Source: the human T2T-CHM13v2.0 reference genome, Homo sapiens
Assembly: GCF_009914755.1 (NCBI RefSeq)
Contig: NC_060946.1
DNA length: 64,000 nucleotides
Strand: one strand, 5' to 3'
The notes beneath the pieces are model-generated. The model ran no database searches and had not been told where the DNA came from. It saw only the letters and a list, made by a program, of their open reading frames with translations. Shown here one piece after another: positions 45,886 through 48,123 of the stretch (position 1 is the stretch's first letter; each line of letters starts with the position of its first letter). Both the position numbers and the translations under genes were made by a program.

Positions 45886-45930
45886 CCATTCATGAAGGGG
45901 TGGAGCCTGCCTGCCTGTGGGCCTTTATAA
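45886..45930 (+). promoter_or_regulatory. DUX promoter of copy G: DBE/GC-box-like element and TATAA box
   Basis: CCATTCATGAAGGGGTGGAGCCTGCCT at 45886-45912; TATAA at 45926-45930, 134 bp before the ATG. Confidence 0.7.
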
Positions 45931-46063
45931 GATCCACTGGCTGGCTGTCCGGGCAGGTTTCCTGGATGATCCTTCCGCAGTGCACAGGCAGGCTGAGGTG
46001 CACGGGAGTCCGCCGTCTCTCTGTCTGTGTCCATCCATGAAATTCTGGCCGGGGCTCCCCTCG

Positions 46064-47332
46064 ATGGCCATCCCAACACCTTTGGACGGCACCCTCCCCG
46101 AGGAAGCCCGGGGATGGGGAAGGCAAAAGAGACTCGTTTGGACCCCGAGCCAAAGCGAGGCCCTGCGAGCCTGCTTTGAGCGGAACCGGTACCCAGGCAT
46201 CACTACCAGAGAACGGCTGGCCCAGGCCATCAGCATTCCAGAGCCTTGGGTCCAGATTTGGTTTCAGAATGAGAGGTCATGCCAGCTGAGGCAGCACCGG
46301 CAGCAATCTCAGCCCTCGCCTAGGATACGCGGCCCGCAAGAAGGCAGGCAAAAGCGGACCGCCGTCACCGGATCCCAGACCGCCCTGCTCCTCCGAGCCT
46401 TTGAGAACAATCGCTTTCCAGGCATCGCTGCCAGGGAAGAGCTGGCCAGAGAGACTGGCCTCCCGGAGTCCAGGATTCAGATCTGGTTTCAGAATTGAAG
46501 GTCCAGGGACCCGGGACAGGCTGGCAGGGCGCCTGCGCAGGCAGCCGGCCTGTGCAAAGCGGCCCCCAGCTGGTGTCACCCAGCTCCCTCGTGGGTCACC
46601 TTCGCCCACACCGGTGCGTGGGGAACGGGGCTTCCCGCACCCCATGTGCCCTGCGTGCCTGGGGCTCTCCCACAGGGGGCTTTCGTGAGCCAGGGATTGA
46701 GGGCCGTCCCAGTGCTCCAGCCCAGCCAGGCCGCGCCGGCAGAGGGGATCTCCGAACCTGCCCCGGCACGCGGGGATTTTGCGTACGCCACCCGGGCTCC
46801 TCAGGAAGTGACGTTCTCCCCCCCTCAGGCTCCTCAGTCGCCTCTGCACCCGGGCAAAAGCCGGGAGGACCAGGACCCGCAGCACGATGGCCTGCCGGGC
46901 CCTTGCGCGATGGGACAGCCTGGGCCTGCTCAAGCGGGGCCACAGGGCCAAGGTGTGTTTGCACCACCCGCGACCCAGGGGAGTCCGTGGTGGGGCTGGG
47001 GCTGGGGTCCCCAGGTCGCCGGGGCGGCGTGGGAACCCCAAGCCAGGGCAGCTCCACCTCGCCAGCCCGAGCCCATGGAGGCCTCTGCGTGGCAGGGGCA
47101 GATGCAAGGACTCCCGGCGCCTTCCCAGGTGCTCCAGGAGCCGGGGCTCTCGTCTGCACTCCCCTCCGGCCTGCTGCTGGATGAGCTCCTGGCGAGCCTG
47201 GAGTTTCTGCAGCAGGCACTACCTTTCATAGAAACAGAGGCCCCGGGGGAGCTGGAGGCCTTGGAAGAGGCTGCCTCGCTGGAAGCACCCCTCAGCGAGG
47301 AAGAATACGGGGCTCTGCTGGAGGAGATTTAG
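46064..47332 (+). pseudogene. DUX4L: DUX4-like copy G; full-length 423-codon frame interrupted by one TGA (46496-46498) after WFQN of homeodomain 2; 144-aa product if expressed
   Basis: ORFs 45917..46498 and 46646..47332 share a frame; hand translation of 46499-46645 ([49 protein letters not shown]) is open and DUX4-like. Confidence 0.92.
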
Positions 47333-47340
47333 GACACTAG

Positions 47341-48075
47341 GTTGGGACGGGGTCGGGTCGGGGCAGGGCGGTGTCCTCTCTTTCGTGGGTAACACCTGAA
47401 TGGCTATGGAGGGGCTTGTCTTCCCCCAGCCCCCTCCACTGGGCTGACCAGCCTAGGATTCCTGCCTTCTAGGTCTAGGCCCGGTGAGAGGCTCCACACA
47501 GCAGAGAACAGTCATTCTTTCCTGGGCATCCCGGGGATCCCAGATCTGGCCCAGGTACCAGCAGGTGGGCCACCTACTGCCCACGCGCGGGTTTGCGGGA
47601 AGCCCCCTGGGCTGTGGGAGCAGCCAGGGTAGAGCTCTCATGCCTCTCCACTACCCCACCCCCACCTGACCACCCCTCCCCAACCCCACGCCCCCCAACC
47701 GGAGAAAGCATCCTCCCCTGGGCTGGGTGGAGACCCCCATCCCACGAAACACCAGGCCTGCATAGCATCCAGTCCTGACACCACTCTGGTGACTCGCCTC
47801 CTCTGCGCCTCTGCGCCACCATCGCCGGCCCGCCCGTGCCCCTGCAGCCTCTCAGCTGCAACCATGGAGGGCCTGGTGGTGGAACGCAGACCTCTAGCTC
47901 TCTTTGCCGGCCTCCTGGCTAGAACTACGCTCATTGCACACCCCGGCTGACGTGCAAGGGAGCCTGCTGGCCTCTCTGTTTCCTTGTCCCTCCGTGAAAT
48001 TCCGGCTGAGGCTCTCCCAACACCTTCCTACACTCTTTAGACAAAGCCTGGAGAATAGTTACATTTCCTGGATGA
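47341..48075 (+). other. DUX4-like 3' UTR splice architecture: intron 1 47341-47472, exon 2 47473-47564, intron 2 47565-47922, exon 3 (pLAM-like) from 47923
   Basis: GT at 47341, CTTCTAG ending 47472, CAG|GTGGG at 47565, CCTGGCTAG ending 47922; boundaries inferred from recalled DUX4 gene structure. Confidence 0.6.
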
Positions 48076-48077
48076 AA

Positions 48078-48109
48078 TGTATAAATAAAGCAATAGCACC
48101 TGGAATAAA
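48078..48109 (+). terminator. Candidate polyadenylation signal: TGTA plus two AATAAA
   Basis: TGTA 48078-48081; AATAAA 48084-48089 and 48104-48109, sense to copy G; function untested. Confidence 0.5.
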
Positions 48110-48123
48110 GCGATAGCACCTGG

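What the first reader, a model, noticed from the sequence alone, without database searches (positions are those of the whole stretch)
45886..48123. Copy G is one nucleotide from a complete DUX4-like transcription unit
Seen: DBE/GC-box-like element, TATAA, ATG at 46064 (and an in-frame upstream ATG at 46037), a 423-codon frame with no frameshift and a single stop (WFQN-TGA, from CGA), retained LLLDELL and ALLEEI motifs, intact GT/AG at both 3' UTR introns and the new AATAAA pair. It is the least disrupted copy in the window and also the only one with a poly(A) signal at exon 3. Inference: as it stands it would encode 144 aa (HD1 plus HD2 lacking RRAR), probably an NMD substrate. An ancestral allele, or one repaired by gene conversion from copies with CGA here (A, B, D, E, F), would encode a full-length DUX4-like activator outside 4q35.
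Basis: partly seen in the sequence, partly recalled or inferred. Interest (0 to 1): 0.85.

Follow-up and report, generated by a model that had tools for sequence, protein, structure and literature searches.

The report
Decaying DUX4 pseudogene copy with poly(A) signal
This is one of several hundred old, decaying copies of the DUX4 repeat buried in satellite DNA on chromosome 22's short arm; it happens to keep an almost open reading frame and has gained a poly(A) signal, but it shows no sign of being kept by selection and is already listed in published catalogues.

Summary
Copy G (window 45243-48117, +) is a 2.8-kb, 5'-truncated D4Z4-pLAM unit flanked by 68-bp beta-satellite. Its DUX4 frame (46064-47332, 423 codons) has one in-frame TGA (46496, codon 145, CGA in most relatives) and no indel against the 10q DUX4 ORF. 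All four 3'-UTR splice dinucleotides are intact. Two AATAAA lie 161 and 181 nt into the exon-3 homologue.

The poly(A) signal is the rare part. Of 212 places in the genome with the exon-3 anchor 18-mer, only 4qA and G have AATAAA or ATTAAA within 45 nt.

The reading "nearly a working gene" is weak. G's own branch evolved neutrally: 85 changes, codon positions 32/28/25, dN/dS about 0.9. Forty of the 85 are CpG losses, and CpG density is half that of D4Z4. A neutral simulation gives one stop or none 26% of the time. TATAA, GC box and splice sites are family-wide. No identical tract longer than 66 nt links G to any copy, so recent gene conversion is not seen.

The locus is listed in published T2T tables (PMC10620044). 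A chr22 locus matching its description is reported in PMC12963445. Verdict: a known kind of pseudogene, unusually well preserved by chance.

The parts
43901..45242 (+). 68-bp beta-satellite array upstream of copy G
   Evidence: Tandem Repeats Finder, period 68, 19.8 copies
45243..48075 (+). Copy G: a 5'-truncated D4Z4-pLAM unit shared with the other window copies and with the last 10q unit
   Evidence: 87.0% identity over 2870 aligned nt to L002:651-3519. 84-87% identity to the other window copies. Listed as Chr 22 6059265-6062305, TRUNCATED_5', in Table S4 of PMC10620044.
45829..45997 (+). Region homologous to the DUX4 promoter/DBE, containing the GC box (45860-45867) and TATAA (45926-45930)
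   Evidence: Alignment with 10q D4Z4 and 8 other window copies. TATAA is present in all 9 window copies, while D4Z4 has TACAA. The limits are set by the DBE primers in the supplement of PMC12963445.
46037..46039 (+). Upstream in-frame ATG, produced by CpG decay (CCGTG to CCATG)
   Evidence: ORF 46037-46498, 153 aa. The alignment shows CCGTG in D4Z4 and most copies, and CCATG also in c4.
46064..47332 (+). DUX4-like frame of 423 codons including the terminal TAG, interrupted once
   Evidence: Translation. 91.0% nt identity and 0 gaps against the 10q DUX4 ORF. Listed as Chr 22 6060063-6061334 in Table S5 of PMC10620044.
46118..46297 (+). Homeodomain 1 (codons 19-78), 53 of 60 residues identical to DUX4
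   Evidence: PDB match to the DUX4 double homeodomain, E = 6e-75. Pfam Homeodomain, 2 stretches. Identity count.
46343..46495 (+). Homeodomain 2, cut after homeodomain position 51 (codons 94-144)
   Evidence: Pfam Homeodomain residues 95-144 match profile positions 1-50 of 57. 48 of 51 residues identical to DUX4.
46496..46498 (+). In-frame TGA at codon 145 (CGA in D4Z4 and in 5 window copies)
   Evidence: Codon 145 is one of five CGA codons in the family consensus (21, 35, 96, 111, 145), all of them recurrent TGA sites.
47341..47472 (+). Homologue of DUX4 3'-UTR intron 1 (GT..AG)
   Evidence: Homology to L002:2778-2913. The boundaries are partly recalled.
47473..47564 (+). Homologue of DUX4 exon 2 (92 nt)
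   Evidence: Homology to L002:2914-3005. The exon 2 end is fixed by the primers.
47565..47922 (+). Homologue of DUX4 intron 2 (GT..AG, 358 nt)
47923..48075 (+). Homologue of pLAM exon 3, up to the point where G departs from all other copies
   Evidence: Alignment with 4q, 10q and the window copies.
48076..48117 (+). Private junction with two AATAAA (48084-48089, 48104-48109) inside a 20-nt tandem duplication, then beta-satellite
   Evidence: The 80-nt stretch 48046-48125 has no second full match in the genome. It is 1 of only 2 anchor-plus-hexamer sites among 212 anchors.
48117..49372 (+). 68-bp beta-satellite array downstream of copy G
   Evidence: Tandem Repeats Finder, period 68, 18.4 copies

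Best explanation
Copy G is a neutrally decaying DUX4 pseudogene. It is one unit of the old D4Z4-pLAM / beta-satellite composite (LSAU-BSAT) on acrocentric short arms. The unit carries the whole ancestral DUX4 retrogene layout: promoter with GC box and TATAA, one coding exon, two 3'-UTR introns and a pLAM-like exon 3 that runs into beta-satellite.

Since dispersal each copy has drifted on its own, mainly by CpG transitions, which implies germline methylation. G drew a lucky hand. Only one of the five CGA codons became TGA; two others, codons 21 and 96, now read glutamine. No indel fell in the ORF. A small rearrangement at the exon 3/beta-satellite junction created two canonical AATAAA hexamers close to where 4qA has ATTAAA.

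If the copy were ever transcribed and spliced, it would give an NMD-prone mRNA for a 144-aa (or 153-aa) protein with HD1 and a truncated HD2.

Shown: the anatomy, the neutral substitution pattern, the CpG loss, the rarity of the poly(A) hexamer and the listing in print. Inferred: silence, NMD, and lack of function.
For: Family context:
- The window is beta-satellite with 11 D4Z4-like inserts.
- The copies are 82-88% identical to one another and each ORF is 87-91% identical to 10q DUX4. That is a star-like old radiation.

Neutral evolution on G's branch:
- 85 changes against the family consensus, codon positions 32/28/25, 24 synonymous and 61 non-synonymous, dN/dS 0.91. The other copies give 0.63-1.11.
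- By region: 0.81 for codons 1-144 and 0.94 for 146-422.
- Against 10q DUX4, 47 differences are CpG lost in G and 2 are the reverse.
- CpG per 100 bp is 5.0 in G against 9.3 in the 10q unit.

Chance expectation:
- Neutral simulation with G's own mutation spectrum gives a mean of 2.59 stops, P(0) = 0.066 and P(1) = 0.19.
- 4 of 9 window copies have no private ORF indel.
- Lesion counts (stops plus frameshifts plus start loss): 2 to 8 or more in the 7 other full window copies and 3 to 10 in 15 further full copies from chromosomes 1, 14, 15, 21 and 22. G sits in the tail of a broad distribution, 1 of 23 with one lesion or none.

Family-wide features:
- TATAA in 9 of 9 window copies.
- All four splice dinucleotides in 25 of 39 copies.

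No conversion tracts: the longest exact match to any copy is 66 nt.

In print:
- The locus is in Tables S4 and S5 of PMC10620044.
- That paper's section 8 reports median methylation of 81-94% for this class, with no read below 50%.
- PMC12963445 (section 9, read in full) reports about 500 D4Z4-like units outside 4q/10q. They include a 423-aa open frame on chr1 and a 379-aa frame with a poly(A) signal on chr14.
Against: - A canonical poly(A) hexamer at the exon-3 position is rare, 2 of 212 anchor sites.
- Its coincidence with the best-preserved ORF in my sample of 23 is mildly unlikely if the two are independent. My rough estimate is 0.05-0.1 such copies expected genome-wide.
- The two homeodomains taken alone give lower dN/dS on G's branch: HD1 has 5 synonymous and 7 non-synonymous changes (0.45); HD2 has 2 and 3 (0.52). 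The counts are too small to tell.
- G has the lowest non-CpG divergence of the window copies, 33 of 1024 against 37 of 744 to 62 of 1024.
- No expression or methylation data for this particular copy were available to me.
- The review PMC12376486 (passages) says that DUX genes in dispersed 3.3-kb repeats were found to be transcribed.
Confidence: 0.85

Rival explanations
1. Copy G is an expressed gene for a short double-homeodomain protein of 144-153 aa. It would resemble DUX4-s or DUX1 and bind DUX4-type sites without activating, or compete with DUX4.
For: - Promoter motifs, start codon, both homeodomains (HD2 nearly whole), splice sites and a canonical AATAAA are all present.
- PMC12963445 describes a chr22 locus of just this kind as 'closely resembling DUX4-s'.
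- The review PMC12376486 reports that DUX1, from a dispersed 3.3-kb repeat, gave a DNA-binding protein.
- dN/dS within the homeodomains is 0.45-0.52 on G's branch.
Against: - dN/dS over codons 1-144 is 0.81, the same as the pooled dead copies at 0.76.
- HD2 lacks everything after homeodomain position 51, including Arg53 of the recognition helix (general homeodomain knowledge).
- HD1 has lost arginines at positions 3, 44 and 55.
- The start context is weaker than in D4Z4: T at -3 where D4Z4 has G.
- The stop lies far upstream of two introns, so NMD is expected (inference).
- The class is heavily methylated.
Confidence: 0.06
2. The TGA is a recent or polymorphic change. Some human haplotypes carry CGA and thus a full-length DUX4-like activator with a canonical poly(A) signal outside 4q35.
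For: - The change is a single CpG transition.
- The rest of the 422-codon frame is open and keeps the LLLDELL and C-terminal motifs.
- The same CGA-to-TGA change also occurs in one 4q35 unit of this genome, so the site mutates readily. That allows a young event.
Against: - Codons 146-422 evolved neutrally on G's branch (dN/dS 0.94), so the downstream frame was not being protected.
- 14 of the 82 C-terminal residues, and 76 of 423 positions overall, differ from DUX4.
- There are no conversion tracts.
- Only one genome could be examined.
Confidence: 0.04
3. The copy makes a polyadenylated non-coding RNA with no protein role. The gained AATAAA would stabilise transcripts that start at the family promoter when heterochromatin is relaxed.
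For: - The AATAAA pair sits at the exon-3 position.
- The promoter motifs are intact.
- The review reports RT-PCR products with little or no ORF from dispersed repeats.
Against: No data for this copy. The class is highly methylated in blood. Downstream cleavage elements were not assessed.
Confidence: 0.1

Closest known systems
DUX4 in the distal D4Z4 unit plus pLAM on 4qA
   Same: - Same gene layout, element by element: GC box, TATA-like box, single coding exon with two homeodomains and the C-terminal LLxxL motif region, two 3'-UTR introns, and exon 3 running into beta-satellite.
- The poly(A) hexamer lies 161 nt into exon 3, against 167 nt for the homologous hexamer of the last 10q unit; the 4q hexamer aligns with the 10q one.
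   Different: - The ORF is broken at codon 145, and 76 of 423 positions (the stop among them) differ from 10q DUX4.
- TATAA instead of TACAA.
- AATAAA instead of ATTAAA. It is not the orthologous hexamer: it lies in a private junction.
- Single unit inside beta-satellite, lacking the 5' ~0.9 kb of D4Z4.
- Half the CpG density.
Divergent 5'-truncated D4Z4-pLAM paralogs of LSAU-BSAT composites (319 copies in T2T-CHM13; PMC10620044)
   Same: G is listed among them by coordinate. It matches in length, about 90% ORF identity, CpG density of about 5% and beta-satellite flanks.
   Different: It has fewer ORF lesions than the 22 other full copies I scored, and it has a poly(A) hexamer at exon 3.
'Chromosome 22 locus 1' and the chr1/chr14 loci of PMC12963445
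   Same: - Chr22 locus 1 is described as truncated, with both homeoboxes, no C-terminal domain, a poly(A) signal and 85.3% identity to DUX4.
- G's 144 aa are 84.7% identical to 10q DUX4.
- G is the only chr22 site with the anchor plus hexamer.
   Different: Identity with G could not be confirmed, because the coordinates are in a supplementary PDF that I could not read. The chr1 locus (423 aa, open frame, no poly(A) signal) and the chr14 locus (379 aa with a poly(A) signal) are more complete in coding terms than G.
DUX4-s (161 aa) and DUX1 (a short double-homeodomain protein from a dispersed 3.3-kb repeat)
   Same: The predicted product is limited to the homeodomain region. The promoter has TATAA, like the HEFT1/DUX1 promoter described in the review.
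   Different: G's product stops inside HD2 helix 3. DUX4-s arises by splicing, not by a nonsense codon. No cDNA is known for G. The size of DUX1 (170 aa) is recalled, not seen in a call.

Membership tests
D4Z4-like / LSAU-BSAT composite unit (5'-truncated D4Z4-pLAM paralog) | At least 85% identity over at least 400 nt to a reference D4Z4 unit (the criterion of PMC12963445, section 5) | tested here: met
   87.0% over 2870 aligned nt to the last 10q unit.
D4Z4-like / LSAU-BSAT composite unit (5'-truncated D4Z4-pLAM paralog) | Embedded in 68-bp beta-satellite | tested here: met
   Period-68 arrays abut both ends.
D4Z4-like / LSAU-BSAT composite unit (5'-truncated D4Z4-pLAM paralog) | pLAM-like 3' end continuous with the D4Z4 part | tested here: met
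   A single alignment runs through L002:3519, inside the 10q pLAM.
D4Z4-like / LSAU-BSAT composite unit (5'-truncated D4Z4-pLAM paralog) | High CpG methylation | not testable with these tools
   Reported for the class only. CpG decay in G fits it.
Functional DUX4-type protein-coding gene | Uninterrupted frame of about 422-424 codons | tested here: not met
   TGA at codon 145.
Functional DUX4-type protein-coding gene | Two complete paired-class homeodomains | tested here: not met
   HD1 is complete. HD2 matches profile positions 1-50 of 57 and then stops.
Functional DUX4-type protein-coding gene | Purifying selection on the coding sequence | tested here: not met
   dN/dS 0.91 on G's branch, with flat codon-position counts 32/28/25.
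Functional DUX4-type protein-coding gene | Transcript and protein detected | not testable with these tools
   No expression data. No gene is annotated in the window (hub note in the finding).
4qA-type permissive DUX4 transcription unit | Exons 1-3 with usable splice sites | tested here: met
   GT..AG at both intron homologues. Only the dinucleotides were checked, not splice-site strength.
4qA-type permissive DUX4 transcription unit | Poly(A) signal in exon 3 | tested here: met
   AATAAA at 48084 and 48104. Function was not tested.
4qA-type permissive DUX4 transcription unit | Relaxed, hypomethylated chromatin | not testable with these tools
   The class is reported as uniformly highly methylated, also in FSHD2.

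The most novel reading that the evidence does not exclude
Copy G is the only place in this genome besides 4qA where a DUX4-type exon 3 carries a poly(A) hexamer. It also has the least damaged DUX4 frame in my sample of 23 copies. If some human haplotypes carry CGA at 46496, or if the copy loses methylation (SMCHD1 or DNMT3B defects, cancer, germline), it could yield a stable DUX4-like mRNA from chromosome 22. The product would be either a full-length activator or a 144-aa homeodomain competitor. Either would confound DUX4 assays or modify DUX4-linked phenotypes.
Probability: 0.04. Interest if true: 0.7.

Novelty: already known. Interest (0 to 1): 0.2.

Why it matters
Stable DUX4 expression in FSHD depends on a poly(A) signal after the last repeat. 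A second locus with such a signal would therefore matter in two ways: for assay specificity (many DUX4 primers amplify acrocentric copies, PMC12963445), and, less likely, as a source of DUX4-like protein.

My checks indicate that this copy is a drifting pseudogene whose good state is chance. Its practical value is as a known cross-reacting locus. It also carries a private junction sequence (48076-48117) that could serve as a copy-specific marker in long-read DNA and RNA data.

Tried and rejected
1. Selection on the frame. I tested this with pairwise and branch-wise dN/dS, codon-position counts and regional splits. No signal was distinguishable from the dead neighbours. The homeodomain-only values of 0.45-0.52 rest on 5-12 changes.

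2. A deficit of indels in the ORF as a sign of constraint. Private indels run at 0.90 per kb in ORFs (10 events) against 1.75 per kb in flanks (24 events) across the 9 window copies. One copy, c3, supplies 9 of the flank events. For G it is 0 against 4 small flank events plus the 42-nt junction. This is too weak to use.

3. A closer paralog of G elsewhere that might carry CGA. The ORF search returned nothing nearer than 91%, and those hits were the 10q/4q units; only 40 of 572 candidates were scored. The junction search found no second copy.

4. Recent gene conversion. The longest exact match is 66 nt, so this is rejected.

5. Shared descent of the TGA in G and c11. c11 shares other stop positions (26, 241) with chr21 and chr1 copies that G lacks. 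G's TGA is therefore most likely independent.

6. A first genome pattern for the poly(A) census was too loose and mostly hit other repeats. It was replaced by an 18-nt anchor. Copies with a mutated anchor are not counted, so 2 of 212 is not a full census.

7. Splice boundaries from antisense-oligonucleotide papers gave no sequences. The exon 2/3 junction came from a primer table instead.

8. Confirming that 'chr22 locus 1' of PMC12963445 is G. The coordinates are in a PDF supplement that cannot be read here.

9. Pfam found nothing in the 277 residues after the stop.
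Full report
WHAT IS THERE

The window is almost wholly 68-bp beta-satellite, interrupted by D4Z4-like inserts of about 2.8 kb. A BLAST of copy G against the window finds 11 places:
- eight full or nearly full units: c2 4887-7724, c3 12148-14868, c4 15484-18131, c5 25095-27930, c6 32739-35567, G 45243-48117, c9 49346-52179, c11 60203-63030;
- one unit cut by the window edge: c1 2-1750;
- two fragments: c7 43397-43899 and c10 54131-55028.

Units before about 43.9 kb lie on the minus strand and those after it on the plus strand. 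The copies are 82-88% identical to one another.

- ATG at 46064 and an in-frame ATG at 46037.
- 46064-47332 reads as 423 codons with one internal TGA at 46496-46498, after WFQN, and a terminal TAG.
- Residues 1-144 match the solved DUX4 double homeodomain at E = 6e-75. Pfam finds two homeodomain stretches, the second ending at profile position 50 of 57.
- The whole-genome search placed the window on contig 22 and gave the 10q and 4q D4Z4 units as nearest relatives of the ORF at 91% identity; 40 of 572 candidates were scored.
- Against the ORF of the last 10q unit (L002:1501-2769), G has 114 of 1269 mismatches and no gap.
- Codon 145 is CGA in 10q DUX4 and in c1, c2, c4, c5 and c6, CAA in c3, gapped in c9 and TGA in c11.
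- G is the least damaged full copy in the window, with 1 stop and no indel. The others:
  - c5: 2 stops.
  - c2 and c6: 1 stop and 2 frameshifts each.
  - c9: 2 stops and 1 frameshift.
  - c4: 3 stops and 2 frameshifts.
  - c3: 5 stops and 3 indels.
  - c11: 7 stops and ACG in place of the start codon.

THE 3' END

L002 proved to be the last 10q unit, followed by pLAM (hexamer ATCAAA) and beta-satellite. The chr4 distal end in this genome carries ATTAAA, so it is 4qA.

Every window copy ends in a pLAM-like exon 3 that runs into beta-satellite. At the site of the 4qA hexamer they read ATGTCACAATG, the ordinary beta-satellite sequence. G alone departs after CCTGGATGA into a private stretch of about 42 nt. 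That stretch holds a 20-nt tandem duplication with AATAAA at 48084 and 48104.

The exon 2/3 junction is fixed by a primer annotated 'DUX4 Exon2/Exon3, first 14 nt of Exon 2' in the supplementary primer table of PMC12963445, which I read whole. This gives for G:
- intron 2 at 47565-47922 (GT..AG), with exon 3 starting at 47923;
- the first AATAAA 161 nt into exon 3, against 167 nt for the 10q hexamer, with which the 4q hexamer aligns.

Intron 1 (47341-47472, GT..AG) is placed by homology, using an intron length of 136 nt that I recall. The 3'RACE products of about 400, 550 and 900 bp quoted in PMC5368697 (passages) are consistent with it.

HOW SPECIAL ARE THESE FEATURES?

- The GC box is kept and TATAA is present in 9 of 9 window copies; D4Z4 itself has TACAA.
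- The upstream ATG is a CpG-decay product (CCGTG to CCATG) and is also seen in c4.
- All four splice dinucleotides are kept in 25 of 39 copies examined. Those 39 are 10 window rows plus 29 of the 30 loci L031-L060, which include 10q, 4q and 18p.
- The poly(A) hexamer is rare. In the same 39 copies only 4q and G have AATAAA or ATTAAA after exon 3.
- Genome-wide, the 18-nt exon-3 anchor GTTACATYTCCTGGATGA occurs at 212 places. Only 2 of them, 4qA and G, are followed within 45 nt by AWTAAA. Copies with a mutated anchor are not counted.
- The 80 nt across G's junction have no second full match in the genome.

IS THE FRAME PROTECTED?

No.
- Against a majority consensus of the ten aligned ORFs, G has 85 private changes at codon positions 32/28/25. 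They split 24 synonymous and 61 non-synonymous, dN/dS 0.91. The other copies range from 0.63 to 1.11.
- Codons 1-144 give 0.81 and codons 146-422 give 0.94. The seven other full copies pooled give 0.76 and 0.80.
- The homeodomains alone give 0.45 and 0.52, from only 12 and 5 changes.
- Forty of G's 85 changes are CpG transitions.
- Against 10q DUX4, 47 differences are CpG lost in G and 2 are the reverse.
- CpG density is 5.0 per 100 bp in G against 9.3 in the homologous part of the 10q unit.
- Placing G's own numbers and kinds of changes at random on the consensus gives a mean of 2.59 stops, with P(0) = 0.066 and P(1) = 0.19.
- The consensus has five CGA codons (21, 35, 96, 111, 145). These are exactly the recurrent TGA sites across copies. 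G hit one of them; codons 21 and 96 now read glutamine.
- Private indels are not clearly rarer in ORFs, 0.90 against 1.75 per kb, with c3 dominating the flank count. 4 of 9 window copies have none in the ORF.

A WIDER SAMPLE

I fetched 20 of the 37 non-4q/10q/18p places found with the 10q pLAM query. Fifteen hold a full-length ORF alignment. Their lesions (stops, frameshifts, start loss) number 3 to 10 each, and none has one or fewer. So G is 1 of 23 full copies scored with at most one lesion. It is a tail value, but an expected one in a family of about 300 ORF-bearing units; that figure is my sum of the exon-1 column of Table 1 in PMC12963445.

The joint occurrence of the best ORF and the only non-4q poly(A) hexamer is mildly improbable if the two are independent. 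I estimate roughly 0.05-0.1 such copies expected genome-wide. I record that as evidence against pure chance, though it is a post hoc coincidence.

GENE CONVERSION

The longest exact match between G and any other copy is 66 nt in the window and 59 nt to 4q/10q units. Nothing indicates recent exchange.

THE PROTEIN, AS INFERENCE

- The 144-aa product is 84.7% identical to DUX4 (122 of 144), with HD1 at 53 of 60 and HD2 at 48 of 51.
- HD1 has lost arginines at residues 21, 62 and 73, which are homeodomain positions 3, 44 and 55. HD2 ends after position 51, so it lacks Arg53 and the rest of the recognition helix. The position numbering and the roles of these residues are general homeodomain knowledge, not a call.
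- The C-terminal 82 residues of the read-through frame differ at 14 places.
- The TGA lies 843 nt upstream of intron 1, so a spliced mRNA should be an NMD target (inference).

WHAT IS IN PRINT

- PMC10620044, 'Deciphering D4Z4 CpG methylation gradients...', Genome Res 2023. I read section 8 in full, plus passages and passages of its supplementary tables.
  - It catalogues 319 5'-truncated D4Z4-pLAM copies in LSAU-BSAT regions of T2T-CHM13.
  - It reports median methylation of 81-94%, with no read below 50%, in blood DNA of controls, FSHD1 and FSHD2.
  - Its Table S4 lists Chr 22 6059265-6062305 as TRUNCATED_5'. Its Table S5 lists Chr 22 6060063-6061334 as a DUX4 ORF paralog with 1155 matches. 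These are copy G and its ORF.
- PMC12963445, Salsi et al., Eur J Hum Genet 2026. I read the abstract, sections 5 and 9 in full, and the primer supplement whole.
  - It tabulates D4Z4-like units on 12 chromosomes with their exon 1, 2, 3 and poly(A) status.
  - It singles out five loci. One is a chr1 frame of 423 aa, one a chr14 frame of 379 aa with a poly(A) signal. 'Chromosome 22 locus 1' is described as truncated, with both homeoboxes, no C-terminal domain, a poly(A) signal and 85.3% identity.
  - That description fits G, but the coordinates are in a PDF supplement that I could not read, so identity is probable and not shown.
- The interspersion of single or double D4Z4 units in acrocentric beta-satellite is cited as an older finding in PMC3488192 (passages).
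- The review PMC12376486 (passages) recounts the TATAA-bearing HEFT1/DUX1 promoters of dispersed 3.3-kb repeats, and RT-PCR products from them.
- I found no paper with expression data specific to this copy. PMC12776069 (passages) gives only class-level methylation.

VERDICT

The element is a member of a long-known and recently catalogued family, and the locus itself is in published tables. Its substitution pattern is that of a methylated pseudogene. Its one truly uncommon trait is a canonical poly(A) hexamer where 4qA has its permissive signal. That makes it worth a copy-specific look in long-read RNA and methylation data. The present evidence does not make it a gene.

Noticed in passing
L030 = G000:C4:193475628-193476902 (an internal 4q35 D4Z4 unit): One internal 4q35 D4Z4 unit of this genome carries the same CGA-to-TGA change at DUX4 codon 145 (WFQN*). 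The 10q units I translated (L002, L013, L029) are open. In one search it scored 1760 bits, above the 10 other 4q units listed there (1755 each), because it shares the T with G.
   Followed up: partly
Window copies and loci L061-L079: The five CGA codons of the family consensus (21, 35, 96, 111, 145) are the recurrent TGA sites across acrocentric and chr1 copies. Examples are codon 35 in L062, L063, L072, L078 and L079, and codon 96 in c3, c11, L064, L070 and L071. Shared stops are therefore poor markers of common descent in this family.
   Followed up: partly
window 43397-45242: Beta-satellite and D4Z4-like units switch strand here. A 0.5-kb 3' fragment of a unit (c7, minus strand) directly abuts plus-oriented beta-satellite that leads into copy G. 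This is an inversion junction just upstream of G.
   Followed up: no
window 12148-18131: Two units (c3 and c4) lie only about 600 nt apart with no long beta-satellite array between them. c4 lacks the last ~180 nt of the unit, and c3 is the most damaged copy in the window.
   Followed up: no
L002, L013, L029 (10q) against L030 (4q): The 10q units encode 422 aa and the 4q unit 424 aa (an extra Ala-Ser in the DASAS stretch). All window copies align to the 10q-length frame there. That suggests 422 codons is the older state.
   Followed up: partly
L033 = G000:C18:263842-267151: A solitary copy of the 3' UTR-pLAM region (alignment starts at the stop codon) near the 18p end is 92% identical to the 10q pLAM, far closer than the acrocentric copies at 83-84%. 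It keeps all four splice dinucleotides but has no poly(A) hexamer. PMC12963445 lists it.
   Followed up: partly
L031, L032 and the window copies (alignment): The 4qA poly(A) signal lies inside a degenerate beta-satellite monomer. Where 4qA reads ...ATATTAAAATG..., the acrocentric copies read ...ATGTCACAATG..., the normal satellite sequence. The region just before it resembles the DUX4 5' UTR: 78% identity between L002:1387-1497 and G's exon 3.
   Followed up: partly
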